A stretch of 64,000 nucleotides of DNA from a virus (Duplodnaviria; Heunggongvirae; Uroviricota; Caudoviricetes), in IMG/VR virus record IMGVR_UViG_3300009702_000014, positions 62,445-126,444 of that record; one strand, 5' to 3'. Below are positions 1,969 to 58,633 of the stretch, one piece after another. The position numbers were made by a program, and so were the translations under genes. The notes below the pieces were generated by a model that saw only the letters and a list, made by a program, of their open reading frames with translations, was not told where the DNA came from and searched no databases. The first letter of the stretch is position 1. Each line of letters opens with the position of its first letter.

Positions 1969-1983
1969 TATGAGAAGGATTAG
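1969..1983 (-). promoter_or_regulatory. copy of recurrent minus-strand motif CTAATCCTTCTCATA (putative phage promoter), upstream of a tRNA sub-cluster
   Basis: plus strand reads TATGAGAAGGATTAG; same 15-mer family recurs at least 14 times in the window. Confidence 0.5.
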
Positions 1984-1987
1984 AACT

Positions 1988-2064
1988 TGGTGCTCCGGGA
2001 GGGATTTGAACCCGCATCTGGTCTGATTAAGAATCAGCCGCTTTGCCAATTAAGCTACCGAAGC
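1988..2064 (-). tRNA. tRNA-Lys(CTT) (tentative anticodon)
   Basis: acceptor GCTTCGG/CCGGAGC; D-arm GCTTAATTGGCAAAGC; anticodon loop TTCTTAA by position counting; T-loop TTCAAAT; CCA encoded. Confidence 0.5.
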
Positions 2065-2068
2065 ATAA

Positions 2069-2185
2069 GGCGGAGGGAAGGATTCGAACCTCTCACGACC
2101 GGAACCGTGCCACTTCCAACTGGCCCTCACGCATGGGAGAGTTTACCCCGACTTAAGCACCTTTGTCAACCCCTTTCAAGAAAGT
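2069..2185 (-). tRNA. tRNA-like element or elements with a T-arm signature; structure unresolved
   Basis: contains GGATTCGAACC (T-loop on minus strand) and a D-arm-like GCCAGTTGGAAGTGGC, but no convincing acceptor pairing could be found by hand over the 117-nt interval. Confidence 0.25.
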
Positions 2186-2260
2186 TGGCTCTAGGGGCAG
2201 GATTCGAACCTACAACTAACAGGTTAACAGCCTGTCGTGTTACCATTACACCACCCTAGA
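2186..2260 (-). tRNA. tRNA-Asn(GTT)
   Basis: acceptor TCTAGGG/CCCTAGA; anticodon stem ACAGG/CCTGT with loop CTGTTAA; T-arm GTAGGTTCGAATCCTGC; GCCA 3' end. Confidence 0.7.
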
Positions 2261-2269
2261 ATACATGTT

Positions 2270-2640
2270 TTAATGAAGCTGTTTATACTCCTTGCTCGGA
2301 ATTGTAGTTTGTCGTAAGTTATAAACACTATTCCAAGTAGCTAGGACTGCTAAGAGCAGAATAATAAGGGAAACAAAAGAAGTGCTTCCTTTCAGGAGAG
2401 GCAATAAATAGATTAGACCAATAAACGAATAAATACCTATATGAGCGACCTCCTTTGCTTTACGGCCCCATTTCACAAAAAAAGAAAGGGTATCAAAAAC
2501 TACGTTAAATAAGAAAAGGCCAATTATTACTATAAAATAGTGTTCCGCTATAAAGTCCGAGGAACCAACAAGCCAAAGGATTACCAAAGCTACGAGACTA
2601 AAATAAATAATATCGTTAAAGATACGTTTTACGTAAGGCA
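2270..2640 (-). CDS. small integral membrane protein
   Basis: ORF 2270..2698 is strongly hydrophobic with several predicted TM segments; start trimmed to internal Met (MPYVKR) because the upstream part overlaps tRNA-Asp. Confidence 0.4.
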
Positions 2641-2662
2641 TACATAATATCCTCTCAAATAT

Positions 2663-2740
2663 TGGCGGCCTAGACGGGATTCGAACCCGCAACCTCACCG
2701 GCTGACAACCGGGTGTTCAACACCGTAGAACTACTAAGCC
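2663..2740 (-). tRNA. tRNA-Asp(GTC)
   Basis: acceptor GGCTTAG/CTAGGCC; anticodon loop TTGTCAG; T-arm GCGGGTTCGAATCCCGT; GCCA 3' end. Confidence 0.65.
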
Positions 2741-2765
2741 ATACCTAAAGTATATGATAGCAGGA

Positions 2766-2780
2766 AATGAGAAATATTAG
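2766..2780 (-). promoter_or_regulatory. copy of recurrent motif (minus strand CTAATATTTCTCATT) upstream of tRNA-Asp
   Basis: plus strand reads AATGAGAAATATTAG. Confidence 0.45.
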
Positions 2781-3853: not shown

Positions 3854-4399
3854 ATGAAAACTACATTAGAAAACGACATTCTTACTTTAAGAAAAGAAGG
3901 AAAAACTTATTCTCAAATTCAAAAAGAACTAGGCTGTTCCAGAGGCACTATTTCTTATTATGTTGGTAAAGGACAGAAAGATAAAACACGTCAACGAAAT
4001 AAAAAAGTTAGAGACGAAAATCCAGTTAGTCGAAAGGTAGCTGAATTTAAATCAAGAGGAAAAGCACGAAAGAATTTTGTTTCTAAAACAAGAGATTTCC
4101 AACGTCGTGACGGTTTATATCTAGCATCTACTCCTGAAACCGTTGATTTTACGTATCAAGACGTGCTAGATAAAATTGGCCCTAATCCTACATGTTATTT
4201 AACAGGACTGCCTATAGATTTATATGACCCGTCCTCTTACCATTTTGACCATATTATCCCTGCATCACAAGGTGGTAATAATTCTCTAGAAAACCTTGGA
4301 ATCGCTTTAAAATCCGCAAACAATGCAAAAGACTCATTACTCTTAGGAGAATTTTTAGACCTGTGTGAAGCAGTTTTGAAACACCACGGTAGAATATAA
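3854..4399 (+). CDS. HNH homing-type endonuclease with N-terminal HTH
   Basis: HNH motif HFDHIIPASQGGNNSLENLGIALKSANNAK; the only plus-strand gene inside the minus-strand tRNA array. Confidence 0.65.
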   Translation: MKTTLENDILTLRKEGKTYSQIQKELGCSRGTISYYVGKGQKDKTRQRNKKVRDENPVSRKVAEFKSRGKARKNFVSKTRDFQRRDGLYLASTPETVDFTYQDVLDKIGPNPTCYLTGLPIDLYDPSSYHFDHIIPASQGGNNSLENLGIALKSANNAKDSLLLGEFLDLCEAVLKHHGRI

Positions 4400-4488: not shown

Positions 4489-4629
4489 ATCGCTCCTCTC
4501 AAATTTAATACACATATCATAGCACGTACCTAGTCAAGCTGTCAATCCCCATGTTAAAGGATAATCAACTCTCGATTTCGTCTTTGTCTGCCTGGGTTAG
4601 ATGGGGCCAAAGGGGGCTTTCAACTTCTT

Positions 4630-4647
4630 TATGAGAAGGATTATAGG
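4630..4647 (-). promoter_or_regulatory. copy of recurrent motif (minus strand CCTATAATCCTTCTCATA; includes a TATAAT hexamer)
   Basis: plus strand reads TATGAGAAGGATTATAGG; lies between gene 4652..4858 and the tRNA array. Confidence 0.45.
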
Positions 4648-4880: not shown

Positions 4881-5108
4881 TTACAAGTTTTCCTCGTTGG
4901 CATAGTCGAAAATAGCCAAAGCCACACTAAGGGATGGTTTGTCGAGGACATAGTGCCTCTTAATGTCCTCTCGGGTTTCCGAATCTAGTACGACCAAAAC
5001 CATCGCATCTATAGCCTCGGCATCATAGATAGACGGGTATTCTTTAGAAATCATCCGTACTAGTTGTTGAATCTTTTCCATAGTCAGTATATTACTCTGC
5101 TGCTTCAT
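4881..5108 (-). CDS. hypothetical protein
   Basis: 75-aa ORF; true start may be the internal Met (MEKIQQ) about 25 nt downstream of the recurrent motif. Confidence 0.35.
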   Translation of the reverse strand: MKQQSNILTMEKIQQLVRMISKEYPSIYDAEAIDAMVLVVLDSETREDIKRHYVLDKPSLSVALAIFDYANEENL

Positions 5109-5120
5109 GAGAAGGATTAG
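5106..5120 (-). promoter_or_regulatory. copy of recurrent motif (minus strand CTAATCCTTCTCATG)
   Basis: plus strand reads CATGAGAAGGATTAG. Confidence 0.45.
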
Positions 5121-6015: not shown

Positions 6016-6037
6016 AATGCATTTTACTCCATCTAAG

Positions 6038-6052
6038 TATGAGAAAGATTAG
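6038..6052 (-). promoter_or_regulatory. copy of recurrent motif (minus strand CTAATCTTTCTCATA), 23 nt upstream of the start of 5788..6015
   Basis: plus strand reads TATGAGAAAGATTAG. Confidence 0.5.
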
Positions 6053-6628: not shown

Positions 6629-6651
6629 GATGCTATCCTATCCTTCTGTCA

Positions 6652-6675
6652 TATGAGAAGGGTGAGGATTAATCC
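6652..6675 (-). promoter_or_regulatory. variant of recurrent motif with CTCACCC insert (minus strand GGATTAATCCTCACCCTTCTCATA)
   Basis: about 25 nt upstream of start of 6053..6628; the same variant occurs near 24299 and 48769. Confidence 0.45.
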
Positions 6676-8011: not shown

Positions 8012-8020
8012 AGTTTGATT

Positions 8021-8422
8021 CTACTCTTTCGCTGTATTAGAAAGGTGAGTGAGCCCCAGCTTGAGGTTAGAATAGATTATTTCCTCACCCCAGCGTTGGA
8101 ATAGGTTGCCTAGAAACACCGGCAACAGCGGCTCAACAGAGGAGGCAGTCGCAACATCTTCTTCTTCCCACCGGTTAATATCAAAATAGTCGTCACCAGG
8201 ATGGTCTTGACCATATATAAGACGGAAGATATCAGTTTCGACTTGCCCACTGTACTGCGTAGCGGTACCTCCCTTAATTATGTAGTTATCACCTAGTAGT
8301 AGAAGGTTCTGCTTTTCGTCATAAAACCAATCCATCGGGATAACCGGCTTAATCCTCTCAAGAACCTCTTGCACACTACGCAATTCATGTTGGGTAATCT
8401 GTCTCATGACTTTCTCCTCCAT
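8021..8422 (-). CDS. hypothetical protein
   Basis: 133-aa ORF preceded by motif and RBS GAGGAGAAAG. Confidence 0.45.
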   Translation of the reverse strand: MEEKVMRQITQHELRSVQEVLERIKPVIPMDWFYDEKQNLLLLGDNYIIKGGTATQYSGQVETDIFRLIYGQDHPGDDYFDINRWEEEDVATASSVEPLLPVFLGNLFQRWGEEIIYSNLKLGLTHLSNTAKE

Positions 8423-8441
8423 AGAGTCTATGTTAGACAGC

Positions 8442-8456
8442 TATGAGAAGTATTAG
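8442..8456 (-). promoter_or_regulatory. copy of recurrent motif (minus strand CTAATACTTCTCATA), immediately downstream of an intrinsic terminator and 20 nt upstream of gene 8021..8422
   Basis: plus strand reads TATGAGAAGTATTAG. Confidence 0.55.
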
Positions 8457-8480
8457 AAAAGGGGGCTTTTGCAAGCCCCC
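8455..8480 (-). terminator. rho-independent terminator downstream of rIIB-like gene
   Basis: minus strand GGGGGCTTGCAAAAGCCCCC (8-bp stem) followed by TTTTCT. Confidence 0.6.
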
Positions 8481-9607: not shown

Positions 9608-11613
9608 ACATTCCTTCCTTCCTTTTCGGAGATAGCATTAGCATAGTCGATGTACGCCTGAGAATTGTGAGAGTTCCCAAAGAGCAGAGGGTAGTCCTTG
9701 CTCAGCTTATCAGCAATATCGGTTAGCTCCTTTTGTAGCCGTTTAATTTCCGAATAGTAGAGTTTCGTAGAAATTCCATGACTTTCGCAGATAAGAAGAA
9801 GAATTCCCCACTGATACCCTCCGACGGCCGGAATAGGTCCCGTGCTAGCACTTTCAATCAGCTTTCCAAATTCCCGCAAAGCATCGTCCTTGATATGGGG
9901 AACAGCCTCAATCGGGAGATTAAAGTGAATACCATAGGGAACTCCCGCAAGACGACGCTTCTGGTCCTCTGTAAGCTTACCAAACTCCTGTGTATACTTG
10001 CTGGCCAGAAAATCCTGGAGCCTTTGTGCCTTAGGAAAAGCCTTACAAAATCCGTCAGCTTGCTTAGGCGTCACACCATAAAAGGAAACGTTAGGGAAAA
10101 GTTTCGTCAGAGTAGGCATACTCGAATGATATTCCATGCGGCCAGCGTAGACAATGGTTTCCGTGTCCTGTGGCTTTTCCTTCGTGAAAATAGCCTTCCC
10201 ATATTGGCTCAAAGCCGGAGAGAGCTTAGGCCACGGGCGCACAGACGGCTTGCGAGTCGTAGTTGTCGCCACCTTGATAGGCTTCAAATCATCCACATCA
10301 GTAATCAACGTTAGAAATTCACGGATTGCTGGTTCGAAATACTCCTTAATGTCACCTTCGATATAGTAGACATCCTTCTTATCGTGTGTGTGCATCCAGT
10401 CCTTGAGCTTATTACGATAAGTCTGAGTCAATTCAGACTTTTCACCAGAGAGCACAATTGCATTGCGAAGGCTGTGCATCGGGATTATTTCCAGGCGACT
10501 ACGGTAAAGTAGTCGGTCGTTTGCATCCAGGTAATACTGACTGAACTTCTTCTTCGACGGACCGCCATTAATAAGCGGGACACCCTTATAAGTCGGTGTT
10601 AAATCAAGCCGGAAAGCCCGAATAAGGATATTATAGTCGTGCTTATTGTAAAGCTCAGTGGCTTCGATGTAGTTTTTGGCTGTTACCAAATCCTTTGTTA
10701 TTTGAGAAGCAAGCAGACGAGTTACTTCATCTAACTTATTCTGAATAAAAGACCGAGTACGCTTAGTGTAATGCAATTCCTCACGGCTGGGGGTAAAATC
10801 CACGTCACCCATTTCAGCATAAAGAGCCAGAGTAGGACGAGATAGATAATGGCGGTCCAGTTGAGAAAATTCCGAAGCCTTGATAGGATAAGCCACATTC
10901 CCCATAACAACATAATCCTCGGGGCGGCCTCCGTTGCCTTCCAAAAACTTAATCGTGGGAGTCAAACCCATAAGGACATCTATAGTTGGGTTAAAGTCAG
11001 CATCATTGATAAACACAGGCTTCGGTTCAACGAAACGGAAGAACTTCTCAGCCTTGCGACGAAATTCGTGAATATTCTTCACGGGAACGGTGATTTCTAC
11101 ACCATTCGGCTCCTCAGTTTCGGCCTGATAAAGCTCTGTCATGCGAGGAACACCAAATTCGTCCTTGTGGACGGAGAAGGCGCACTTGACACCATCCTTG
11201 ATAGCAACCAGAGAAAACTGGTTGGTCAGAGTAAGAGCAGACTTACAACCAAGACCAAGCTGTCCCGTAAAGTCGTTGCTCTCACGCTTAGTTGAAGCAC
11301 CATAATTTCCGTAGATTTCGAATACTTCTTCTTCGCTGAGGCCAACACCTTCGTCCTTCACAACAAAGCTGTCGCTAAAGATGGAAGGTAGCGTGACAGT
11401 AATAGGCACATCGCCCTTACCAGCAGCCACATGCGAATCCAAAGCATTCGTAGTGTACTCCCGAATAACAGCCATCGCAGGGTCACTGTAAAGGTCGGTC
11501 AGGATGCCCATGATGTGTGCGACGCTGTTAGGGTCGATACCCATTTGCTTCGTGCGAACGACACCCGAAGTTTCAGTAACTACCGTTTGTTCCTTGTTTA
11601 CAATCATGCTCAA
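9604..11613 (-). CDS. rIIA: rIIA-like protein with GHKL ATPase domain
   Basis: N-box IREYTTNALDS, G1 KDEGVGL, G2 ESNDFTGQLGLGCKSA and PSREELHYTKRTR, closely paralleling T4 rIIA ESNDFIGGFGLGSKS and PSREALSLDDRTR as recalled. Confidence 0.75.
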   Translation of the reverse strand: MSMIVNKEQTVVTETSGVVRTKQMGIDPNSVAHIMGILTDLYSDPAMAVIREYTTNALDSHVAAGKGDVPITVTLPSIFSDSFVVKDEGVGLSEEEVFEIYGNYGASTKRESNDFTGQLGLGCKSALTLTNQFSLVAIKDGVKCAFSVHKDEFGVPRMTELYQAETEEPNGVEITVPVKNIHEFRRKAEKFFRFVEPKPVFINDADFNPTIDVLMGLTPTIKFLEGNGGRPEDYVVMGNVAYPIKASEFSQLDRHYLSRPTLALYAEMGDVDFTPSREELHYTKRTRSFIQNKLDEVTRLLASQITKDLVTAKNYIEATELYNKHDYNILIRAFRLDLTPTYKGVPLINGGPSKKKFSQYYLDANDRLLYRSRLEIIPMHSLRNAIVLSGEKSELTQTYRNKLKDWMHTHDKKDVYYIEGDIKEYFEPAIREFLTLITDVDDLKPIKVATTTTRKPSVRPWPKLSPALSQYGKAIFTKEKPQDTETIVYAGRMEYHSSMPTLTKLFPNVSFYGVTPKQADGFCKAFPKAQRLQDFLASKYTQEFGKLTEDQKRRLAGVPYGIHFNLPIEAVPHIKDDALREFGKLIESASTGPIPAVGGYQWGILLLICESHGISTKLYYSEIKRLQKELTDIADKLSKDYPLLFGNSHNSQAYIDYANAISEKEGRNV

Positions 11614-11671
11614 AACTCCTTAACGCTCAGATGCTCCTATCATAGCGTACATCCCGTGAGAATGATGAGAC

Positions 11672-12269: not shown

Positions 12270-12292
12270 AATACAATTCTACCCCTGTCCCA

Positions 12293-12307
12293 TATGAGAA
12301 ATGTTAG
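12293..12307 (-). promoter_or_regulatory. copy of recurrent motif (minus strand CTAACATTTCTCATA)
   Basis: plus strand reads TATGAGAAATGTTAG. Confidence 0.45.
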
Positions 12308-12722
12308 AGCCCTTAGAACGCCGGGAAACTCTAACATTTCGTTTCATATATAAAAATTTGGAGGCGTCGGCATCGAAGCCGAGTCCAGAATAATGTCCAA
12401 ATAGCCTTCTACGTGTGTAGCACCTTACTCAAGTGCGGAGTCTTACGGGGTTTTGTCTGTTATACATTTGCAGTTATTGTGCGCTAACTGCGGGCGGGGG
12501 CTGCTTTACGCAGCGAGTGGCATACCGTAGCTACCATAGGTAGCAGGGATATAACCGTAATCATTAACGTTGTTAGTTAATTATTTGGGCTTGTTAAGGG
12601 GCCAGCCCACCCCTACACGCGGGTTATTCTTCTTTTGCCCTGTCGAAACCTTGTCGCCCCCATAATTCCTCGGGGTATCCAGGCTCATTGCTTCTTAATA
12701 ATACCACATAATCTACAAGGCG

Positions 12723-15386: not shown

Positions 15387-15479
15387 ACTTGTATCCTAGC
15401 ATAGTGTTTATGAGGATTGTGAAACTTCGTTCCTCACAGCCTTTTTGCCGAATCAGTGTTCCTTGCCCATACCTTAGAA

Positions 15480-16768: not shown

Positions 16769-17836
16769 CAGTGTTGTTACTACTTACGCGAATTGGATAA
16801 AACCTACCGACCAAGGTTTGTTTTCTCCATATCTACATTGTATACTACATTTTGGTGAGATTGATGAGACTAGACTTTTCCAAACCAGAATTTTCATATA
16901 TGCTCGGATTACTACACGCAGACGGACATTATGACAAACAACATACCAATGGCAAAATAACACTTGAAGCCAGTATGAAAGATGTGGATATAGCCCATAA
17001 ATTATCAAAAGTGCTTCCTGGAAAATCTACAATCACGTATAGGAACCGGCATACTAATTACTCAAAAGACTCTCAAACCTTTGTGTGGAGCATATATGAC
17101 AAAGACATTCGTACTCAGTTCCCTATGCCTTCTGGCAAAAAATCCCACCTAATTGCCCCTCCAGATATCCCTTACTCCAAAGTAGACTATTGGAGAGGTA
17201 TCATAGATGGTGATGGTTCTCTTGGATTTACCAGTCAAGGACTTCCTTTTATTAGTTTAGTAACTCAAAGTGAGGCTCTAAAGGAAACCTACATAGATTT
17301 TCTTGAACCAATTCTAGGATATCGCAAGCGGCTATCACGTAATACACGGGATAATGTGTATAATATTGTAATATTCAATGAGGCGGCTCAGTCACTAGCA
17401 AATAAACTTTACTATCTTGACTGTCTTGCTATTGCTAGAAAGTACGAAGTGGCGAATCAGCTTAAACAATGGGAGCGTTCTATCCCGCAGCGGCCCCGCT
17501 CCCTACCGTGGGAGCAATGGGAAGAACAATATTTACAGACACACACCCTTGATGAAGCTATCAAATACTTATCTCATAGAACGAAAAAGGCTATTAAACT
17601 AAAACATTATCGCATAAGCGGGTAGGTCATTTCTGCCTACCTCAACATGTTTCCATGCTGCTCAGACTATCCCTTCATCCCGTAGGATGCGCCTATTATA
17701 GTCGTTGCACGTTCCCTCGCGGGCTTCGCTCAGGGTTGCCGTATAGCACCTAAAGGTCGGTGGCGCTACTTAGGGTTCCCCTGAATTTAAGGCGTTTTTA
17801 TCTTCCCTGTTACCAGGAAAGGGAGGCAGTCAGTTT
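16769..17836 (-). mobile_element. intervening sequence in rtcB (probable group I intron, about 1068 nt) carrying a LAGLIDADG endonuclease ORF in antisense orientation
   Basis: splits the invariant RtcB motif GGG|NHF; exon 1 ends with U (codon GGT), the insert ends with G (..CTG) before AAT CAC TTT; GC-rich structured flanks at 17626-17836. Confidence 0.55.
16852..17625 (+). CDS. LAGLIDADG homing endonuclease (two motifs)
   Basis: YMLGLLHADGH and WRGIIDGDGSLGF; plus strand, i.e. antisense to rtcB. Confidence 0.75.
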   Translation: MVRLMRLDFSKPEFSYMLGLLHADGHYDKQHTNGKITLEASMKDVDIAHKLSKVLPGKSTITYRNRHTNYSKDSQTFVWSIYDKDIRTQFPMPSGKKSHLIAPPDIPYSKVDYWRGIIDGDGSLGFTSQGLPFISLVTQSEALKETYIDFLEPILGYRKRLSRNTRDNVYNIVIFNEAAQSLANKLYYLDCLAIARKYEVANQLKQWERSIPQRPRSLPWEQWEEQYLQTHTLDEAIKYLSHRTKKAIKLKHYRISG

Positions 17837-20972: not shown

Positions 20973-21275
20973 GCTCTTTGCGGCAATTCTGCCTTGCTGC
21001 CACGTAAGGATTGCCTAGCCATAGGTTATTAGTCCTATGCTGGTGAGTTTTTACCTCACCGCTTTCACCTACCGCTGGTACGCGGTCTCTGTTCGCTGTT
21101 GCTCTTGCTCGCACGTCACCGTGGTCGGGCGTTACCCGATACGCTTTTTATGGCAGCCCGGACTTTCCTCCCCGTAGGGCGCTAGAATGCCCAACTCAAC
21201 TTCGCTCAGTCTACTCTACCATACTATGAGAATAGTGAAAAGTCCCCGACGTATGCCGAGGACTTTATAGGTTCT

Positions 21276-22151: not shown

Positions 22152-22190
22152 AAGTTCAATCCTTTCGTTTAACATTGTTCCATAAAAGTT

Positions 22191-22205
22191 TATGAGAAGT
22201 ATTAG
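22191..22205 (-). promoter_or_regulatory. copy of recurrent motif (minus strand CTAATACTTCTCATA), 40 nt upstream of collagen-like gene start
   Basis: plus strand reads TATGAGAAGTATTAG. Confidence 0.5.
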
Positions 22206-22922: not shown

Positions 22923-22991
22923 CAGGCATTCTACTTTTCAAAGCAATGAGAGTTGTGAGATGCCTCTTTGTGGTTATCATTAACCCGACGC

Positions 22992-24265: not shown

Positions 24266-24298
24266 CTAGCCATCCTTTCTTCTATTATAGTCGCACAT

Positions 24299-24318
24299 AA
24301 ATGAGAAGGGTGAGATTT
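24299..24318 (-). promoter_or_regulatory. variant of recurrent motif (minus strand AAATCTCACCCTTCTCATTT), about 35 nt upstream of the HD gene start
   Basis: plus strand reads AAATGAGAAGGGTGAGATTT. Confidence 0.4.
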
Positions 24319-25481: not shown

Positions 25482-25535
25482 ACGTTCAACGCTCCTTCAT
25501 AGGAAAAGTAGTATAGCGGCTCAACTACCACTATA

Positions 25536-26228
25536 CTACTTCGCAGTACTATGAGAGGTATTAGTAGATTCCTCTGGAAATTCCAAGTCTACATAGTGAC
25601 CAGTCTGCATCACATGTAGACAGATGAATTGCGTGCCATCTACATTTACATTGAGACGTTTATGGTGGTGCCCAAAGAGCCACAAACTAGGCTTTTTGGG
25701 GCCAACAAGAACATTCTTACGTAGATGTTCCAGGAATTCAGCCGTCCTATTCGGAAAAGCGTGCATGGGGTGTAGATGCTTATAAAGCTCATAAGGGGCT
25801 TCGTGCGTTATAACGGTATTAATGGCTCCTTCATAACGACGCACCTTTTCCTCAATCATATCCATCTCACCCATTGAAAGCTGCTCTTGGTCCCACCAGT
25901 TCATCCCCGGTGTGCGCTGTTGCCAGTCAATCGACCACGCGCCTCCAATGAATAGGGTATCATGGTGAATCATTCCGTCCGGGATATAAAAGAACCCTTT
26001 ATGGTCCCAATCAAAGTAAATTCTGATGTTAGGGTTGTCATGATTGCCTCGGATAAACCTTATCCTAATTTTCGGAGTTTCAATTGGCTGGTCGAAGGTA
26101 CCGGGGAAGCCATACCCGAAGTCACCTGCAATCCAAACCTCATCAATGCCCAAACCGTCCAAACTTTTAATAGTTTTGTCGAGAAAAGAGAAGTCTCCAT
26201 GTAAATCTCCGTAAACTCTGACTTTCAT
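25536..26228 (-). CDS. calcineurin-like metallophosphoesterase
   Basis: GDLHGDF, AGDFGYG and GNHDN metal-binding motifs. Confidence 0.75.
   Translation of the reverse strand: MKVRVYGDLHGDFSFLDKTIKSLDGLGIDEVWIAGDFGYGFPGTFDQPIETPKIRIRFIRGNHDNPNIRIYFDWDHKGFFYIPDGMIHHDTLFIGGAWSIDWQQRTPGMNWWDQEQLSMGEMDMIEEKVRRYEGAINTVITHEAPYELYKHLHPMHAFPNRTAEFLEHLRKNVLVGPKKPSLWLFGHHHKRLNVNVDGTQFICLHVMQTGHYVDLEFPEESTNTSHSTAK
25550..25564 (-). promoter_or_regulatory. copy of recurrent motif (minus strand CTAATACCTCTCATA), overlapping the last codons of the phosphoesterase gene and upstream of the ligase gene
   Basis: plus strand reads TATGAGAGGTATTAG. Confidence 0.4.
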
Positions 26229-27945: not shown

Positions 27946-28272
27946 ATGAGAAGTATGAAATCTCACGTTTCTCACTCATATATATGTAGAATGGAGACTA
28001 TGGACACGCTTACTGACGAACAAGTTGAGTTTATGGATAAAATTCTTACCTTTCTTCTCTATTTGGAAACCATCACGTTAAGTCAAAACGAAATGATGTC
28101 TCCACAAGCGACGAAAGGCGACCTGATATCTAGTTGGGTGATATACAATAACAACATCACTACCTCAATGGCCAAGGAGATTCTAGACTCTGAGTATATG
28201 AAAGAGTATATCTCCGTCACCAACGAGGCTGAGAGAAAAAAGATTGAGGAAAAGTACCAAGAGGTTAACTAA
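27946..28272 (+). CDS. hypothetical protein (first gene of the plus-strand block; true start may be internal Met METMD)
   Basis: 108-aa ORF. Confidence 0.4.
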   Translation: MRSMKSHVSHSYICRMETMDTLTDEQVEFMDKILTFLLYLETITLSQNEMMSPQATKGDLISSWVIYNNNITTSMAKEILDSEYMKEYISVTNEAERKKIEEKYQEVN

Positions 28273-29204: not shown

Positions 29205-29210
29205 ATTGAT

Positions 29211-31278: not shown

Positions 31279-31308
31279 GGCCCCGCTTCGGCGGGGTTTC
31301 ACTTTTCT
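31279..31308 (+). terminator. rho-independent terminator after the Ro60-like gene
   Basis: CCCCGC-TTCG-GCGGGG followed by TTTCACTTTTCTC. Confidence 0.6.
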
Positions 31309-31313
31309 CATGT

Positions 31314-31598
31314 TTGTTTAGAGTAAGATGTTGTTCATTGAAGGAGGAAGTCATGCACAATCATCGAGCAGTTGCAGCTATCGAAAGGGCTGCACTTGAA
31401 GGTCTAGGTATTATTGCTGTTATGTGGGCGTTCCTAGCCCTCTTTGGAAGTTACATAGGGTTTGTTTCATCCACATCAGGCAGTTTCACCGGTTATTTCG
31501 GTGTTCTCGTGCTATACACCTTAGTAAGGGCAATTTTTCTTGCCAGAAAGGAAACTAAATTAAGAAGAAGCTGGTGTTGCTCTTGTTGGTCTCGTTGA
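31314..31598 (+). CDS. small membrane protein
   Basis: two hydrophobic helices; precedes and overlaps the SPFH gene. Confidence 0.4.
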   Translation: MFRVRCCSLKEEVMHNHRAVAAIERAALEGLGIIAVMWAFLALFGSYIGFVSSTSGSFTGYFGVLVLYTLVRAIFLARKETKLRRSWCCSCWSR

Positions 31599-38761: not shown

Positions 38762-38874
38762 TTTGACTCATGTACAAAAATACGGTATAATAAAGAAGTC
38801 TCAAAGGAATTTGGGGCTTCTCATTTATCTAATATGAGCTGTTGCTATAATGAGCGCAGTTAAAGGAGTTTGCG

Positions 38875-44617: not shown

Positions 44618-45304
44618 TTATCCCTCTATTGGTTCTGCATCGAGCATAGGAGTTTCTTCACGCATAACCTTTCCTATGTCGGAGTCCCAATACATCAGTA
44701 CATCTTCGCGGGTTAGAGAGTCCAGAACACGCTTCGCTGCTGGGTCAGCGTCAAGAGCCCTTTGTAATTTACGATAAAGTGCAGGGTCCTCTTTACGCAA
44801 TAAATCTGTAACAATCTTGACATAAGAGACCTCTTTTTGCACATCAAGAACCTGCGCAAAGAGATTAATATACCCTTCTAATTGCTTTGGAGCCATTTCT
44901 ACAAGCTTATTAAGTTTTTGAGCATTCCTGTTCCATTGTTGCAGAGTGTCGTAATTATCTCCTTTGGTTAAGGCAGTTAGTCCCTGCTCATCAATGATGC
45001 TGGCTACCTCTTCTCGATACATTTGAGCCAACATACCAGTAAAAGCCAGTTCCTTAGAAGCATGGTGTACACTCTGGAAATAGTGAGTGATAACACTCAA
45101 CGGGCTAAACTCATCCGTCATTGCGATAGCTTCTAGATTCTCGTCATTGTAGTTACGAAGCTTGTCGTCACGTATAAATCGGTATACTTCGGTATAACCT
45201 AAATCAAACTTATCCGCAATTTGTCGGTAATTTAATTTTTGCTTGAAATGGGCATCTTTAATCTTATCTCCAAGTCCCAATTCCTTGATACGCTTATGCT
45301 TCAT
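44618..45304 (-). CDS. HTH-containing protein immediately upstream of terL (small-terminase candidate)
   Basis: N-terminal YRQIADKFDLGYTEVYRFI. Confidence 0.35.
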   Translation of the reverse strand: MKHKRIKELGLGDKIKDAHFKQKLNYRQIADKFDLGYTEVYRFIRDDKLRNYNDENLEAIAMTDEFSPLSVITHYFQSVHHASKELAFTGMLAQMYREEVASIIDEQGLTALTKGDNYDTLQQWNRNAQKLNKLVEMAPKQLEGYINLFAQVLDVQKEVSYVKIVTDLLRKEDPALYRKLQRALDADPAAKRVLDSLTREDVLMYWDSDIGKVMREETPMLDAEPIEG

Positions 45305-45668
45305 AACCAGTCACCAACTTGTCATTTATCCAATGACGTTGTATATTTCTTGAAGGGGTAGGCACCAGTTCAAATACCTTGTCGTTTTCTTTCTCTGTTA
45401 CTTTTGTCACCCGCCAGATTGTAAGTTCTTCGCCAAATTGAAATGTGTCTCCGATATCCAACCATCGGAAATCATCCACATTAAAATATTGTACATGGAA
45501 ACTCTCTTCTAGCCCCCGTTCTTTGATTTCGTACTTAATAAATCTACGTAAATTTGAGTAGTGGACTCTATACTTATCCGCAATCTCACTCATATTAAGA
45601 TTGCCGTATAAATAATCCTGCATTATAGCCTCTGCGTGGGGACGTAATCTCTTAAACTTGCCTTTCAT
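45294..45668 (-). CDS. HTH-containing protein, N-terminal paralogue of the previous ORF
   Basis: MSEIADKYRVHYSNLRRFI. Confidence 0.35.
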   Translation of the reverse strand: MKGKFKRLRPHAEAIMQDYLYGNLNMSEIADKYRVHYSNLRRFIKYEIKERGLEESFHVQYFNVDDFRWLDIGDTFQFGEELTIWRVTKVTEKENDKVFELVPTPSRNIQRHWINDKLVTGYEA

Positions 45669-50215: not shown

Positions 50216-50268
50216 TTATGAAACCTTTCGACAAAGAAAAATCATGCTCATAGTATACAGGCATGATT

Positions 50269-50283
50269 GATGAGAAAGATTAA
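50269..50283 (-). promoter_or_regulatory. copy of recurrent motif (minus strand TTAATCTTTCTCATC) upstream of the clamp-loader gene
   Basis: plus strand reads GATGAGAAAGATTAA. Confidence 0.4.
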
Positions 50284-50471
50284 AAGGTGTAGCCATCATT
50301 GCCAAATGTGTATTCCCCGGCCGTTTTGTTTTCAATATACCATGCTGCCGGTGAGACAGGTGAGACGGGCAACGGGGCCGTAGGGGGTGTAAACGTTCCT
50401 ACTGCGGATTGGTCGGGGGCCGGAACAAAGTAGGCATCCGTTACATTCCCATCATTTATGTAGAAATCCAG

Positions 50472-56283: not shown

Positions 56284-56366
56284 ATATTTTCTCTTTCTAA
56301 AAAAGTGAATATCCCTCCTATCGCCAGAGAAGAAGGGATATTCTAAATGGGGTGGGGCACACTATT

Positions 56367-57023
56367 TTAATCGTCGTCTTGTGCAACCAGATTCGAATTG
56401 TCGTAGAAGTTGGCTACTTGAGTTTTTCCCGCATTGCGAGCATTAAAGTAGGCAGATGTGCTTGCATTAGTGGCATTTAGTCCCATCGTAGTTCCAGCGG
56501 CATCTGATGTGTACCTCATTACATTGCCCGCAGATAGGTTTAGGCGCTTCTGTAGAAGCACTTCGTCCTGATTAGCGACAAGGTAAACAAAAGTCCAACG
56601 CTCAGTAGCTTCCTTCTCCTTGATAAGACTTGCAATCTGCTCCTGATTAAACGTGCGTGAGGAGTTTTCTGCTCCATCCGTCACGACGACGACAAGAATA
56701 GCATCCTCAGTCCCTAATTCTATGGAGGAGAGGATATTGATGCCTTGTCCTACAGCATCGTACATAGCAGTAGTACCGTCGGGAATGTATGTTTGCTTGG
56801 TGAGCGGTGCTACGTCATAAATATTCGATTCAGTGTATGTTACTTCAACGGAGCCGTTGAATTGGATTAGTGTAGCTAGGATTTTATGCTCAGGATTGGC
56901 TTGGTTTTTAAGCACGAGAAGCTGTTCATTGAAACCGCTGATGGCTTCATCCCAGGCAGCCCCCATTGAACTACTTTTATCTAGTATAAGTGCAACATGA
57001 GTAAACTTCATGTACAACTCCAA
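56367..57023 (-). CDS. vWA-domain protein
   Basis: MIDAS ALILDKSSSMG. Confidence 0.55.
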   Translation of the reverse strand: MELYMKFTHVALILDKSSSMGAAWDEAISGFNEQLLVLKNQANPEHKILATLIQFNGSVEVTYTESNIYDVAPLTKQTYIPDGTTAMYDAVGQGINILSSIELGTEDAILVVVVTDGAENSSRTFNQEQIASLIKEKEATERWTFVYLVANQDEVLLQKRLNLSAGNVMRYTSDAAGTTMGLNATNASTSAYFNARNAGKTQVANFYDNSNLVAQDDD

Positions 57024-57090
57024 TCAATTACCTAATTATACTACCCTTCCATTCTGTTGTCAACAATGAGAAAGCCCGCAAAGCGGGCTT

Positions 57091-57468
57091 TCAATCAACC
57101 GGAATTTGTCTAGCTCTTTTATCCTTATGTATAGGAAGGGTTATCGAGAGAACACCGTATTCCATTTTAGCTTTAATACCTTCTTCATCATAGGAATCAG
57201 ATAATGTAAAACTCCTATTTATTCCAGATGTTTCCTTTCGTGCTGATATTCTAAGAATACCATTTTCAACCTCAACATTTATATCATCTCTGGAATATCC
57301 AGGCAAATTCAAAGAAAATGTATCTTCTTCTTTTCCCCTATTAAATTCACCTTGCCATAAATCTTTATCCCATGAGTACAGGGGTTGGAAAAGCCGGTTA
57401 AATTGGTCTAAAGAATTGCGTCGTGCCAACATTTTAAACCTTCTTAAACTTGAGTGTCTTACACTCAC
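57091..57468 (-). CDS. Hsp20/alpha-crystallin small heat-shock protein
   Basis: FSLNLPGYSRDDINVEVENGILRISARKE ... EYGVLSITLP. Confidence 0.7.
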   Translation of the reverse strand: MSVRHSSLRRFKMLARRNSLDQFNRLFQPLYSWDKDLWQGEFNRGKEEDTFSLNLPGYSRDDINVEVENGILRISARKETSGINRSFTLSDSYDEEGIKAKMEYGVLSITLPIHKDKRARQIPVD

Positions 57469-57498
57469 ATAATATTATAAATCAACAGTGATTATCTG

Positions 57499-57846
57499 TC
57501 AAGACCCCAAACATTCAATGTTATCATAGACTTCATCATAAATAATCAAGAGACTAACGTCAATATACCAGTGCTCTATGCTGCCTGGCGCAGCCACTCC
57601 AATCTGCACGGTGCGGAAATGACGATTAGATAGGGACCATGTTTGTCCCTTCTTATTAATTACGTTATACCATATTTCACCATTGATACCACAACCCTCA
57701 ACGGTATTAATTACAAGATATGCAGTTCCTTTTTCTAGCCCCGCCTCGTCAGGTGTAGGGCCAGAAGGTGTGTCCTTTCCAACATACGTACAAGGAATTA
57801 CCCATTGCTCATACTGCATTGGATTCTTCCCCTTCCTTAGTACCAT
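57499..57846 (-). CDS. hypothetical protein
   Basis: 115-aa ORF. Confidence 0.4.
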   Translation of the reverse strand: MVLRKGKNPMQYEQWVIPCTYVGKDTPSGPTPDEAGLEKGTAYLVINTVEGCGINGEIWYNVINKKGQTWSLSNRHFRTVQIGVAAPGSIEHWYIDVSLLIIYDEVYDNIECLGS

Positions 57847-58423
57847 CAGGAATCTTATTGTTTAAGGCTTTTATAGCATCATTGTATGCAATCATCGTAT
57901 CAATTTGGTGAATAACGTCAGACAAAGCGTTATGGGCAAGCCCCGTGCGACGCGGCACATCTAACTCAGGAACACCTAGATTGCGAATGGTATCCTTGAA
58001 TGTCCTAACGTCACGCCGACGCCAAAACATAGAAAACGGGTTGGTAACGTCGAGTTGGGCCGTTAACCTGTCCAAAATAGCAAAGTCAAAATCTGTTCCC
58101 TGCGCCCACGGGGTTTGTTGTTTCTTGCCCGTCCCAACCCACTTGTTAAGAGCTATAAGAGCTTCGCGTGTAGTCGTTGCCTTCTTATCGAAAAGAATAT
58201 TCTGAAAAACTTCACGGCGTTCATCAGCCATCCACCATCCCCATGTCCCCTTCTCAATCTTGCCATAGGAAACGGCGTCAGGTAGACTAATATTCTTATA
58301 GAAAGCATTATCTGTATCTACCTCACCAGCATTCAAGTCAAATTTAATCGCCGCAATTGAGATAACCGGCGCAGACTCACGTGCGGCTCCAAGGGTTTCA
58401 ATATCAACCATTATATGCTTCAT
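57809..58423 (-). CDS. 3'-5' exo(ribo)nuclease, Rv2179c-like / DEDD family
   Basis: MKHIMVDIETLG, FDFAILD, LAHNALSDV. Confidence 0.55.
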   Translation of the reverse strand: MKHIMVDIETLGAARESAPVISIAAIKFDLNAGEVDTDNAFYKNISLPDAVSYGKIEKGTWGWWMADERREVFQNILFDKKATTTREALIALNKWVGTGKKQQTPWAQGTDFDFAILDRLTAQLDVTNPFSMFWRRRDVRTFKDTIRNLGVPELDVPRRTGLAHNALSDVIHQIDTMIAYNDAIKALNNKIPDGTKEGEESNAV

Positions 58424-58618
58424 TCAGAGTCCTTTCTATTCTCTTCCTCTGGTGGCAAAAACTCAGAAAAAGGCTCGTCTCTAGGAAGAGGCGGCGATGC
58501 TATTGCTAAGAGTATTACAAATCCTAGTATTATACCCACTACCCACATTATTTCTGCTTCCCCTTATCAAGGACAGTTAAAACTCCCCTATTACGGGGAG
58601 TATTATATCTCAGGTTTT

Positions 58619-58633
58619 GATGAGAAAGATTAG
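58619..58633 (-). promoter_or_regulatory. copy of recurrent motif (minus strand CTAATCTTTCTCATC)
   Basis: plus strand reads GATGAGAAAGATTAG. Confidence 0.35.

What the first reader, a model, noticed from the sequence alone, without database searches (positions are those of the whole stretch)
1969..58633. Conserved ~15-nt minus-strand motif CTAATcYTTCTCATA (at least 14 copies) immediately upstream of genes and tRNA sub-clusters: candidate phage-specific promoter
- **Plus-strand instances (5'-3'):** TATGAGAAGGATTAG (1969), AATGAGAAATATTAG (2766), TATGAGAAGGATTATAGG (4630), CATGAGAAGGATTAG (5106), TATGAGAAAGATTAG (6038), TATGAGAAGTATTAG (8442 and 22191, identical), TATGAGAAATGTTAG (12293), TATGAGAGGTATTAG (25550), GATGAGAAAGATTAA (50269), GATGAGAAAGATTAG (58619). 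An internal copy sits at 24178 inside the HD gene.
- **Variant family:** A second family carries a CTCACCC insert: ATGAGAAGGGTGAGGATTAATCC (6652), ATGAGAAGGGTGAGATTT (24301), AGGGTGAGGATT (48769).
- **Orientation and placement:** All copies are oriented with the minus-strand genes, typically 20-55 nt upstream of a start codon and RBS. Two precede tRNA sub-clusters, which argues against a translational role. One (8442) sits directly after an intrinsic terminator.
- **Distribution:** The motif is absent from the plus-strand block at 27.9-40.7 kb, suggesting that block belongs to a different temporal class or RNA polymerase specificity.
- **Partial plus-strand copy:** The divergent region 27905-27946 carries a partial plus-strand copy (TTTCTCACTCATATA).
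Basis: seen in the sequence. Interest (0 to 1): 0.7.

Follow-up and report, generated by a model that had tools for sequence, protein, structure and literature searches.

The report
Clade-specific bipartite phage promoter
The repeated 14-base motif is the upstream half of about two dozen promoters in a ~200-kb uncultured phage: two tandem CTMAT half-sites lie 12 bp before an ordinary -10 box and drive tRNAs, an RNase P RNA and replication genes, with the geometry of phage T4 'middle' promoters but a different sequence and an unidentified reader.

Summary
The motif is real and far above chance. It is one block of a bipartite element: CTMAY-N4-CTMAY (usually CTAATnnTTCTCAT), then 12 bp (rarely 11), then TAnnnT. 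The window holds 16 minus-strand and 2 plus-strand matches against 0.04 expected.

Every good copy sits at a gene boundary and points the same way as the downstream gene. In 8 of 26 sites an ATG that opens a real ORF lies 5-7 nt after the -10, giving a leaderless mRNA (p ~5e-9). An RNase P RNA and two tRNAs begin 8-9 nt after the -10.

The same element occurs in four related 120-210 kb uncultured phages. In all of them it sits directly upstream of the clamp-loader gene, where only the motif, the -10 and the start codon are conserved.

Canonical TTGACA-N17-TATAAT promoters coexist in the same genome, so host RNA polymerase is used. The motif promoters have no -35 hexamer.

Best reading: activator-dependent promoters in which a clade-encoded factor reads tandem half-sites at -38 to -25. 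The geometry matches the T4 MotA box, but the sequence differs and no MotA, AsiA or sigma homologue was found.

The parts
58602..58633 (-). Promoter: CTAATCTTTCTCAT-N12-TATAAT, upstream of the Rv2179c-like exoribonuclease gene 57809-58423. The leader carries a hairpin.
   Evidence: PWM score 30
50334..50364 (-). Weaker variant: CTCACCTGTCTCAC-N11-TATATT, in tandem upstream of the 50283 promoter.
50252..50283 (-). Promoter: TTAATCTTTCTCAT-N12-TATACT, upstream of the clamp-loader gene 49280-50215. The position is conserved in four related phages.
25533..25564 (-). Promoter: CTAATACCTCTCAT-N12-TAGTAT, upstream of the DNA ligase gene 24372-25481.
24284..24314 (-). Promoter: CTCACCCTTCTCAT-N11-TATAAT, upstream of the HD-domain gene that starts at 24265.
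22928..22959 (-). Promoter: CTCACAACTCTCAT-N12-TAGAAT, upstream of an ORF starting near 22907.
22174..22205 (-). Copy with a weak -10: CTAATACTTCTCAT-N12-AACAAT, upstream of the collagen-like fibre gene (ATG near 22150).
21208..21239 (-). Promoter: TTCACTATTCTCAT-N12-TAGACT. The RNase P RNA (20901-21198) begins 9 nt after the -10.
16837..16868 (-). Weak, uncertain variant: CTCATCAATCTCAC-N12-TACAAT, inside the intron/insert region of the split RtcB gene.
   Evidence: PWM 15.8, near the null maximum of 17
15393..15423 (-). Variant promoter: TTCACAATCCTCAT-N11-TAGGAT, then 6 nt, then the ATG at 15386 of the SNF2 helicase (leaderless).
12276..12307 (-). Promoter: CTAACATTTCTCAT-N12-TAGAAT, then 6 nt, then ATG 12269 (leaderless 134-aa ORF).
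11639..11669 (-). Variant promoter: CTCATCATTCTCAC-N11-TATGAT, upstream of rIIA. A motif site also precedes rIIA in relative L158.
9640..9671 (-). Weak variant: CTCACAATTCTCAG-N12-TATGCT, inside the 3' end of rIIA and upstream of rIIB.
   Evidence: PWM 17.5, borderline
8425..8456 (-). Promoter (best PWM score): CTAATACTTCTCAT-N12-TAGACT. It lies directly after the intrinsic terminator 8461-8480 and upstream of gene 8021-8407.
8018..8049 (-). Promoter: CTCACCTTTCTAAT-N12-TAGAAT, then 6 nt, then ATG 8011 (leaderless 70-aa ORF).
6635..6666 (-). Promoter: CTCACCCTTCTCAT-N12-TAGGAT, then 6 nt, then ATG 6628 (leaderless 191-aa ORF). An independent gene call starts at the same ATG.
6021..6052 (-). 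Promoter: CTAATCTTTCTCAT-N12-TAAAAT, then 5 nt, then ATG 6015 (leaderless 75-aa ORF). An independent gene call starts at the same ATG.
5089..5120 (-). Promoter: CTAATCCTTCTCAT-N12-TAATAT, then 7 nt, then ATG 5081 (leaderless 66-aa ORF).
4631..4644 (-). Orphan 14-mer ATAATCCTTCTCAT with no -10 (AGCCCC at that position). Probably inactive or a binding-only site.
2749..2780 (-). Promoter: CTAATATTTCTCAT-N12-TATACT. tRNA-Asp (5' end 2740) begins 8 nt after the -10.
1952..1983 (-). Promoter: CTAATCCTTCTCAT-N12-TATATT, followed by a ~115-nt leader and then the tRNA-Lys/Ser sub-cluster.
918..949 (-). Promoter: CACATGCTTCTCAT-N12-TATGGT. tRNA-Ala(ggc) (5' end 909) begins 8 nt after the -10. A TTCACA-N17-TATACT reading overlaps it.
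26..57 (-). Promoter: TTAATACTTCTCAT-N12-TAGGAT, then 6 nt, then ATG 19 (leaderless ORF that runs off the window). An independent gene call starts there.
27962..27992 (+). Plus-strand variant at the head of the plus block: CTCACGTTTCTCAC-N11-TAGAAT, then 7 nt, then the in-frame ATG 28000 (leaderless).
31298..31329 (+). Plus-strand promoter: TTCACTTTTCTCAT-N12-TAAGAT. It overlaps the tail of terminator 31278-31299 and lies upstream of ATG 31353.
38820..38851 (+). Plus-strand variant with the half-sites swapped: CTCATTTATCTAAT-N12-TATAAT, downstream of PhoH and upstream of gene 38875. The same arrangement follows PhoH in relative L177.
45294..45668 (-). Speculative candidate reader of the motif: a 124-aa helix-turn-helix protein, restricted to this clade, with an invariant recognition helix (HYSNLRRFIK). 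It is transcribed from a conserved canonical promoter at 46482-46510. This link is an inference only.

Best explanation
The motif is the upstream recognition element of a class of phage promoters.

Anatomy, taking the -10 hexamer as -12 to -7:
- A distal half-site CTMAY (mostly CTAAT) lies at about -38 to -34.
- A proximal half-site (mostly CTCAT, usually preceded by TT) lies at -29 to -25.
- A non-conserved 12-bp spacer follows (11 bp in a minority).
- Then comes a host-type -10, TAnnnT, often TAGAnT.
- There is no -35 hexamer, and TGn is not enriched.

Proposed mechanism:
- Host RNA polymerase holoenzyme reads the -10 through region 2 of its primary sigma factor.
- A sequence-specific factor encoded by this phage clade binds the two tandem half-sites, which are 9 bp apart and non-palindromic. 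It supplies the contact that sigma region 4 normally makes with the -35. This would be either a class II activator or a sigma-appropriation-like mechanism.
- Transcription starts 6-8 nt after the -10. That is often at the A of an ATG (leaderless mRNA), or within 0-4 nt of the mature 5' end of a tRNA or the RNase P RNA.
- The class coexists with canonical TTGACA-N17-TATAAT promoters that need no phage factor. Those most likely form the earliest class. One of them drives the operon that holds the candidate factor.

Shown here: the motif, its tandem structure, the fixed spacing to a -10, orientation, position relative to genes and RNA 5' ends, the lack of a -35, coexistence with canonical promoters, and conservation across a phage clade.

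Inferred: the start sites, the need for and identity of a factor, and the temporal class.
For: 1. Enrichment and architecture.
- TTCTCAT-N12-TAnnnT occurs 12 times against 0.07 expected, and the spacer histogram peaks only at 12.
- CTMAY-N4-CTMAY-N11-13-TAnnnT gives 16 minus-strand and 2 plus-strand matches against 0.04 expected, and the half-site gap histogram peaks only at 4.
- The spacer and flanks carry no information, so the copies are not duplicated cassettes.

2. Placement.
- All high-scoring copies are co-oriented with the downstream gene on both strands and lie at gene boundaries. Three follow terminators.

3. Start-site evidence.
- In 8 of 26 sites an ATG opening an ORF of at least 60 aa lies 5-7 nt after the -10. 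The background for all TAnnnT hexamers is 1.6%, giving p = 5e-9.
- Independent gene calls start at those same ATGs.
- P1 of the RNase P RNA begins 9 nt after the -10. tRNA-Asp and tRNA-Ala begin 8 nt after it.

4. No -35.
- With a 16-18 bp spacer, the hexamer at the -35 position matches TTGACA at only 0-2 of 6 positions (read from the sequences).
- Perfect and near-perfect canonical promoters exist in the same DNA: 12 of 12 matches at 57474-57502 and 57035-57063, and 11 of 12 at 29176 and 38763.

5. Conservation.
- Seven more sites lie in the 17 kb flanking the window.
- Four related phages use the same element: IMGVR 3300003886_000001, 3300028603_000021 (the same phage as ENA k141_1097855), Logan SRR31660058_7195 and Logan DRR438457_143264. 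Their proteins are 42-71% identical to the window's and their GC ranges from 39 to 49%.
- Four loci fetched through a protein, independently of the motif, all carry the element directly upstream of the clamp-loader gene. Only the motif, the -10 and the start codon align there.

6. Geometry.
- The T4 MotA box lies 12 +/- 1 bp from the sigma70 -10 and replaces the -35. T4 middle genes include tRNAs and replication genes (PMC2988021).
Against: - No transcription start site has been mapped, and the host is unknown.
- No MotA, AsiA, sigma factor or other known transcription factor family was found in the window or in 17 kb of flanks by Pfam or PHROGs. About 120 kb of the ~202 kb genome was not seen.
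- A 9-bp half-site period is unusual for tandem-binding activators, which typically use 10-11 bp.
- In some phyla a -10 alone next to an ORF suffices for leaderless genes (PMC12340547). The upstream element could therefore modulate rather than enable initiation.
- The candidate 124-aa helix-turn-helix protein sits next to a probable terminase module and has no significant structural match.
Confidence: 0.6

Rival explanations
1. These are promoters read by a phage-encoded alternative sigma factor. Its region 4 recognises the TTCTCAT/CTMAT block at an unusually short spacer, and its region 2 keeps a TAnnnT-like specificity.
For: - The structure is bipartite with a rigid spacer, typical of sigma-dependent promoters.
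- The -10 is shifted toward TAGAnT, with G at the third position in about half of the sites.
- About 120 kb of the genome was not seen, so a sigma gene could lie there.
Against: - No sigma70-family domain was found in 81 kb examined. The only region-4-like hit belongs to an HNH homing endonuclease.
- None was found in the four 20-kb loci of relatives.
- The -10 is indistinguishable in form from that of the canonical promoters in the same genome.
- A 12-13 bp spacer between a '-35' block and the -10 is outside the 16-19 bp range of sigma70-family holoenzymes (established knowledge).
- The upstream block is a tandem repeat spanning 14 bp, which is longer than a region 4 footprint.
Confidence: 0.2
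2. The -10 alone is the promoter (-10-only leaderless promoters), and the tandem CTMAY block is an operator for a repressor or timing switch that overlaps the -35 region.
For: - -10-only promoters adjacent to ORFs are common in Deinococcus-Thermus (PMC12340547) and in Thermus phages.
- The closest cultured relatives by helicase are Thermus and Rhodothermus phages.
- One orphan 14-mer without a -10 exists at 4631-4644.
Against: - The motif is asymmetric and always co-oriented with transcription.
- The rigid 12-bp register with the -10 is expected for a factor that touches RNA polymerase and is not required for a steric repressor.
- The same genomes use strong -35 hexamers at other promoters, so the polymerase normally profits from an upstream contact.
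- The element is kept upstream of the clamp-loader gene in all five phages even though everything else around it diverged.
Confidence: 0.1
3. The element is read by a host factor, for example a PhoB/OmpR-type response regulator or a host alternative sigma, so that the phage plugs into a host regulon.
For: - The proximal heptamer TTCTCAT matches the E. coli pho-box heptamer CTGTCAT at 5 of 7 positions (the pho-box sequence is from my own knowledge).
- Pho boxes are tandem repeats that replace the -35.
- The phage carries a PhoH gene.
Against: - The period is 9 bp here against 11 bp for pho boxes, and the distance to the -10 also differs.
- The element drives about 25 core genes (tRNAs, RNase P RNA, helicase, ligase, clamp loader, rIIA). 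That is implausible for a stress-conditional host regulator.
- It is conserved in phages whose GC ranges from 39 to 49% and which come from different samples.
- A scan of 2.9 million viral contigs found multi-copy use only in this clade.
Confidence: 0.07
4. The element is not a promoter. It could be a chance or compositional repeat, an RNA-level signal, or a packaging or replication motif.
For: There is no experimental data. TTCTCAT is the reverse complement of ATGAGAA, which can arise from start codons on the other strand.
Against: - Enrichment is 100-fold or more over shuffles for the composite pattern.
- The element precedes RNA genes.
- Under its own promoter it lies upstream of the predicted start site and so would not be transcribed.
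- Plus-strand ORFs that begin at the motif are antisense to real genes.
- Position is conserved across phages.
Confidence: 0.03

Closest known systems
Bacteriophage T4 middle promoters (MotA box plus sigma70 -10; MotA/AsiA sigma appropriation)
   Same: - A phage-specific element centred near -30 replaces the -35 hexamer.
- Its 3' end lies 12 +/- 1 bp from a host-type TAnnnT -10 (PMC2988021; here exactly 12 in most sites, 11 in a few).
- The class coexists with strong canonical early promoters.
- It drives tRNAs, replication genes and the rII region.
   Different: - The sequence is unrelated: (a/t)(a/t)(a/t)TGCTTtA in T4 against CTMAY-N4-CTMAY here.
- The element here is 14 bp and a tandem repeat, whereas the MotA box is 9 bp and bound by a monomer.
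- No MotA or AsiA homologue was detected.
- The phage is not a Tevenvirinae member; its proteins are about 40% identical or less to those of any cultured phage.
- Many of its transcripts are leaderless.
PhoB-dependent pho-box promoters (class II activation by tandem direct repeats replacing the -35)
   Same: - Two direct-repeat heptamers take the place of the -35 at a fixed short distance from the -10.
- The proximal heptamer is similar (TTCTCAT here, CTGTCAT in the pho box).
   Different: - The period is 9 bp rather than 11 bp.
- The distance to the -10 is 12 bp rather than about 10 bp.
- The target genes are a phage-wide core gene set rather than a stress regulon.
- The pho-box details come from my own knowledge and were not tested here.
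Lambda CII-activated promoters (TTGC-N6-TTGC direct repeat straddling the -35)
   Same: A phage-encoded activator reads short direct repeats at about -38 and -28 of promoters that lack a good -35.
   Different: - The period is 10 bp and the repeat is a tetranucleotide.
- Lambda has three such promoters, not dozens.
- No CII-like protein was found.
- This comparison rests on my own knowledge.
Thermus phage promoters (Lalka27a late class; phiYS40)
   Same: - Host polymerase is used, with a TANNNT -10 and a start 6 nt downstream.
- Most transcripts are leaderless.
- Class-specific extra conserved bases upstream (a C at -25) were taken there as evidence for a phage factor that modifies host polymerase (bioRxiv 10.64898/2026.04.20.719267).
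   Different: - That class is defined by a special -10 (TAGGGT) plus one base at -25, not by a 14-bp tandem element.
- Those phages are unrelated to this one.

Membership tests
T4-type middle promoter (MotA/AsiA sigma appropriation) | A sigma70-type -10 (TAnnnT) is retained. | tested here: met
   TAnnnT is invariant at T1, A2 and T6 in the aligned sites. It has the same form as the -10 of the canonical promoters in the window.
T4-type middle promoter (MotA/AsiA sigma appropriation) | The element is centred near -30 with its 3' end 12 +/- 1 bp from the -10, and it replaces the -35. | tested here: met
   The spacer histogram peaks at 12, and a minority of sites use 11. The -35 position matches TTGACA at 0-2 of 6 (sequences). 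The T4 rule comes from PMC2988021.
T4-type middle promoter (MotA/AsiA sigma appropriation) | MotA box sequence (a/t)(a/t)(a/t)TGCTTtA. | tested here: not met
   The consensus here is CTAATnnTTCTCAT, or more generally CTMAY-N4-CTMAY. There is no TGCTT core.
T4-type middle promoter (MotA/AsiA sigma appropriation) | The phage encodes MotA and AsiA homologues. | tested here: not met
   No MotA_activ, MotCF or AsiA family appeared among the window ORFs by Pfam or PHROGs, in the precomputed Pfam of the flanks or in the relatives' loci. About 120 kb of the genome was not examined, so absence is not proven.
Canonical sigma70/sigmaA -35/-10 promoter | A TTGACA-like hexamer lies 16-18 bp upstream of the -10. 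| tested here: not met
   The motif sites lack it. The one exception is 949, where an overlapping TTCACA-N17-TATACT reading exists. True canonical promoters occur elsewhere in the window.
Extended -10 promoter | TGn lies immediately upstream of the -10. | tested here: not met
   Positions -15 and -14 show no TG preference. About 3 of 20 sites have TGn (sequences).
Single-subunit (T7-like) or phiKZ-like phage RNA polymerase promoter | A contiguous conserved block runs through the start site, and the phage encodes its own RNA polymerase. | tested here: not met
   The two blocks are separated by a 12-bp spacer with no information, and there is no conservation at +1. No RNA polymerase domains were found in the 81 kb examined.
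PhoB/OmpR-type pho-box promoter | Tandem 7-bp repeats with an 11-bp period about 10 bp upstream of the -10, under a host PhoB regulon. | tested here: inconclusive
   Tandem repeats are present, but the period is 9 bp (the gap-4 peak) and the distance to the -10 is 12 bp. The host and its regulon cannot be tested with these tools.
Functional promoter (any class) | Transcription initiates 6-8 nt downstream of the -10. | not testable with these tools
   The support is indirect only: leaderless ATGs at 5-7 nt and RNA-gene 5' ends at 8-9 nt.

The most novel reading that the evidence does not exclude
This clade of 120-210 kb uncultured phages has its own, so far undescribed way of redirecting host RNA polymerase. 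An early protein, made from a conserved canonical promoter, binds tandem CTMAT half-sites at -38 and -29. It takes over the role of sigma region 4, as MotA/AsiA do in T4, but uses an unrelated protein. The best candidate is the 124-aa helix-turn-helix protein at 45294-45668, whose recognition helix HYSNLRRFIK is invariant across the clade.
Probability: 0.2. Interest if true: 0.75.

Novelty: new variant of a known kind. Interest (0 to 1): 0.5.

Why it matters
Promoter takeover by a factor that replaces -35 recognition is understood in molecular detail essentially only for T4 (MotA/AsiA). This finding is a second, sequence-unrelated instance of the same geometry, in a widespread but uncultured group of large phages.

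It offers several practical uses:
- It gives a precise, testable promoter grammar: CTMAY-N4-CTMAY-N12-TAnnnT, with the start 6-8 nt downstream.
- It lets the genomes of the clade be annotated into transcription units and leaderless genes.
- It corrects several start codons (5081, 28000, 8407, 22907).
- It narrows the search for the factor.
- It shows that the phage's own RNase P RNA and tRNA genes are under phage-specific transcriptional control.

If the factor turns out to be new, it would be a new tool and a new example of how polymerase specificity can be rewired.

Tried and rejected
- **Cultured relatives.** Megablast and tblastn against 50,697 phage records found nothing close. The best hits were 32-42% amino-acid identity to Rhodothermus, Thermus and Streptomyces phages, so no published transcription map applies.
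- **Relatives by helicase.** The first relatives fetched by SNF2 helicase (L001-L005, 35-53% identity) do not carry the motif and are too distant.
- **Second viral scan.** It was useful only for L158, L153 and L012.
- **Host identification.** Searching a probably host-derived GMP-reductase-like gene in 185,579 genomes found nothing. The tmRNA tag, which ends in PLAA, was not diagnostic. One relative is deposited as a 'Thiohalomonadaceae bacterium' MAG, which is weak evidence at best.
- **Rejected regulator candidates.**
  - The only sigma-region-4/LuxR-like Pfam hit belongs to an HNH homing endonuclease at 3854-4399.
  - The 214-aa protein behind the perfect promoter at 57063 is a VWA-domain protein.
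  - The 228-aa helix-turn-helix protein (44618-45304) has a variable helix-turn-helix and a long helical hairpin, and it precedes a ~640-aa MJ0330_N protein. It is probably the small terminase subunit. Its fold search gave no significant match.
- **Candidate 124-aa protein.** Its fold search gave only generic helix-turn-helix regulator matches: Lrp/AsnC at E of 0.02 or worse, and the DeoR DNA-binding domain. Neither MotA nor sigma region 4 ranked among the top matches.
- **Literature.** A search for TTCTCAT plus promoter plus phage returned only macrophage papers. The sample accession is not in the library, and the phiYS40 paper is not held.
- **Rfam low-threshold scans.** Scans of the region beside the Ro/TROVE gene and of the tRNA cluster found no Y RNA and nothing in the long tRNA leaders.

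Full report
**Observation.**
The pattern ATGAGAARNATTAG, which reads CTAATnYTTCTCAT in the minus-strand gene direction, occurs 20 times with up to 2 mismatches. Shuffles give 4.5 +/- 2.2, and 19 of the 20 hits are in one orientation. The heptamer TTCTCAT occurs 25 times on the minus strand and 5 times on the plus strand, against 4.3 expected. The window is phage DNA. It holds twelve tRNAs, rIIA/rIIB, an SNF2 helicase, a ligase, a clamp loader, a ribonucleotide reductase and tail-fibre-like proteins. It comes from a ~202-kb uncultured phage genome, seen as contigs of 201,951 and 203,461 bp. No cultured phage is closely related.

**What the motif is part of.**
Reading the minus strand downstream of each copy shows a -10-like hexamer at a fixed distance. 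TTCTCAT-N12-TAnnnT occurs 12 times against 0.07 expected. The spacer histogram has a single peak at 12. A position matrix of the aligned sites shows two informative blocks separated by 12 positions with no information, and nothing is conserved downstream of the hexamer. The copies are therefore not duplicated cassettes but two independently constrained blocks.

The upstream block is itself a tandem repeat. CTMAY-N4-CTMAY occurs 18 times on the minus strand at gap 4. Every other gap from 0 to 9 gives 3 or fewer, and the null is 0.86. With the -10 added there are 16 minus-strand and 2 plus-strand matches against 0.04 expected. The distal half is usually CTAAT but can be CTCAC, CTAAC, CACAT or TTCAC. 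The proximal half is usually CTCAT preceded by TT. In a few sites the halves are swapped (8049, 38820).

**Full catalogue.**
Two-block PWM scans recover 17 strong minus-strand sites, several weaker ones and three plus-strand sites in the window. The null gives 0.075 sites per strand at score 16 or above. Seven more sites lie in the 17 kb that flank the window on public contigs. Not members: 48769 has no core and sits downstream of a canonical promoter. The 14-mers at 4631 and 24179 have no -10.

**Evidence that these are promoters.**
- Every good site points the same way as the gene or RNA that follows, on both strands, and lies in an intergenic gap or over the last codons of the preceding gene.
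- Three sites lie directly after intrinsic terminators: 8461-8480, 31278-31299 and one in L057.
- In 8 of 26 window sites an ATG that opens a real ORF lies 5-7 nt after the -10 with no Shine-Dalgarno sequence. These ATGs are 12269, 8011, 6628, 6015, 5081, 19, 15386 (the SNF2 helicase) and 28000. The background rate for all 2,608 TAnnnT hexamers in the window is 1.6%, giving p = 5e-9. Independent gene calls on the public contig start at exactly these ATGs. This is the signature of leaderless mRNAs whose +1 is the A of the start codon, as described for Deinococcus-Thermus and Thermus phages.
- Helix P1 of a bacterial type-A RNase P RNA (20901-21198, 173 bits) starts 9 nt after the -10 of the 21239 site. 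tRNA-Asp and tRNA-Ala(ggc) start 8 nt after their -10 hexamers.
- The motif therefore sits at -38 to -25 relative to the inferred start and is not part of its own transcript. That excludes a translational or RNA-level role.

**Promoter class.**
The motif promoters have no TTGACA-like hexamer at 16-18 bp and no enriched TGn. The same DNA also contains textbook promoters. There are 12-of-12 matches at 57474-57502 and 57035-57063. There are 11-of-12 matches at 29176, 32558, 38763 and 4516-4545. One at 12698-12726 lies before a tmRNA gene. The host primary-sigma holoenzyme is therefore clearly used. The motif class keeps its -10 but replaces the -35 contact.

**Conservation.**
A scan of 2.9 million viral contigs with the composite pattern found about 50 single chance hits and two contigs with several hits each. 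Those two, IMGVR 3300003886_000001 (119.7 kb) and 3300028603_000021 (190 kb), are true relatives. They show synteny across RtcB, NUDIX, rIIA and rIIB at 42-66% identity, and they share several other proteins. They carry many more copies, for example eight CTCAT-N4-CTCAT-N12-TAnnnT sites in 12.6 kb of L012, all co-oriented. Among about 170 unrelated control loci, extra copies are rare.

An independent, motif-blind test used a conserved protein (44618-45304) to fetch four 20-kb loci from relatives. All four carry the element. In all four, and in the window, a copy sits directly upstream of the clamp-loader gene. In the alignment of those upstream regions only the half-sites, the -10 and the start codon are conserved. 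A copy also precedes rIIA in both the window (11669) and L158. A copy with swapped halves follows PhoH in both the window (38820) and L177. Other positions differ, as expected if promoters turn over during evolution.

**Mechanism.**
The geometry is that of T4 middle promoters: an element centred near -30 whose 3' end is 12 +/- 1 bp from a sigma70 -10, replacing the -35, and driving tRNAs and replication genes (PMC2988021). The sequence differs, with no TGCTT core. The element here is a 14-bp tandem repeat rather than a 9-bp box bound by a monomer. No MotA, AsiA or sigma family was found in the window, its flanks or the relatives' loci.

I therefore file it as working like a MotA-type or class II activator promoter but not as a member of that family. 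Tandem direct repeats in place of the -35 also recall PhoB pho boxes and lambda CII sites (my own knowledge), but the 9-bp period differs from both. Rivals are:
- a phage sigma factor encoded in the unseen ~120 kb;
- an operator on -10-only promoters;
- a host regulator.

**Candidate reader (inference only).**
Two adjacent genes encode proteins with a similar N-terminal helix-turn-helix. The 228-aa protein has a variable helix-turn-helix and a long helical hairpin, and it precedes a ~640-aa protein that carries two inteins in the window copy. It is probably the small terminase subunit. The 124-aa protein (45294-45668) is restricted to this clade, with 52 homologues. Its recognition helix HYSNLRRFIK is invariant across homologues that are 55-81% identical overall. 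It folds as a three-helix helix-turn-helix plus a small beta domain (pLDDT 84). Its only structural neighbours are generic helix-turn-helix regulators.

The operon that holds it is preceded in all five phages by a conserved canonical TTGAC(A/T/G)-N17-TATA(A/C)T promoter with a leaderless start. It would therefore be made by unmodified host polymerase. This fits an early activator. It fits a packaging protein equally well, so I give it about 20%.

**Verdict.**
The promoter interpretation is well supported by computation, with corrections. The architecture is a new variant of phage-specific, factor-dependent promoters. No start site or factor has been shown experimentally.

Noticed in passing
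window 20901-21198 (-): The phage encodes a bacterial type-A RNase P RNA (Rfam RF00010, 173 bits). The universal core is intact (GAGGAAAGUCCGGGCU and ACAGAACCCGGCUUA), but P3 is shortened and a 40-nt module is deleted, leaving 298 nt against the 367-nt model. It has its own motif promoter. The literature I could search held no report of a phage-borne RNase P RNA.
   Followed up: partly
window 12358-12661 (-): A phage-encoded tmRNA (RF00023, 91 bits) that ARAGORN missed. Its reading frame ends ...YGMPLAA*. It is preceded by a canonical TTGACG-N17-TATTAT promoter at 12698-12726.
   Followed up: partly
window 16049-18430 (-), intron at 17643-17846: The RtcB RNA ligase gene is split into two ORFs (17810-18430 and 16049-16720) by about 1.1 kb that contains a group I intron (RF00028, 68 bits). 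RtcB is uninterrupted in relative L178.
   Followed up: no
window 29176-29545 (+) and 29718-31274 (+): A Ro60/TROVE-domain protein is preceded by a ~330-nt non-coding stretch. That stretch is bracketed by a near-perfect extended promoter (TTGACA-N17-TGcTATACT at 29176) and a strong terminator (29502-29529). A Y-RNA-like partner is plausible, but no Rfam family matched even at a low threshold.
   Followed up: partly
window 41497-44616 (-) and 60829-63990 (-): The 1039-aa protein carries two inteins, one with a LAGLIDADG endonuclease. Its intein-free orthologues are about 640 aa with Pfam MJ0330_N, possibly the large terminase subunit. The ribonucleotide reductase large subunit is also interrupted: the public gene call is 1171 aa and a LAGLIDADG gene sits next to it.
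   Followed up: partly
window 57035-57063, 57474-57502, 46482-46510 (-); L177-L180 near position 8800: Perfect canonical sigma70-type promoters (12 of 12 matches) lie before the Hsp20 gene and a VWA-domain gene. A canonical promoter with a leaderless start is conserved in five phages upstream of the operon of a 270-aa protein, the 124-aa helix-turn-helix protein and the 228-aa helix-turn-helix protein.
   Followed up: yes
window 1837-1951 (-); L006 11490-11600 and 14110-14213: Three motif promoters are followed by leaders of about 100-116 nt before the first tRNA. This contrasts with the 8-nt distances at other tRNAs. No Rfam family matched, so they may be unrecognised small RNAs or degenerate tRNAs. 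There is also a tRNA-like partial hit at 1528-1598.
   Followed up: partly
window 3854-4399 (+): An HNH homing endonuclease with an N-terminal helix-turn-helix lies on the opposite strand inside the tRNA cluster. A second HNH gene is called nearby on the public contig.
   Followed up: no
window 27.9-40.7 kb and L006/L057 flanks: The phage concentrates RNA repair and RNA-damage-related genes: RtcB, an RNA ligase, Ro/TROVE, PhoH, macro domain, NADAR, NUDIX, RNase H and an Rv2179c-like exoribonuclease. These sit together with about 25 tRNAs, a tmRNA and the RNase P RNA.
   Followed up: no
protein P0023, locus L178: A 190-kb relative of this phage is deposited at NCBI as part of a 'Thiohalomonadaceae bacterium' MAG. 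This is either a binning artefact or a weak hint at a gammaproteobacterial host.
   Followed up: no
window 5108 vs 5081, 27946 vs 28000, 8422 vs 8407, 22922 vs 22907, 46491 vs 46473: The longest-ORF start codons are probably wrong at these genes. The promoter positions imply downstream, often leaderless, starts.
   Followed up: partly
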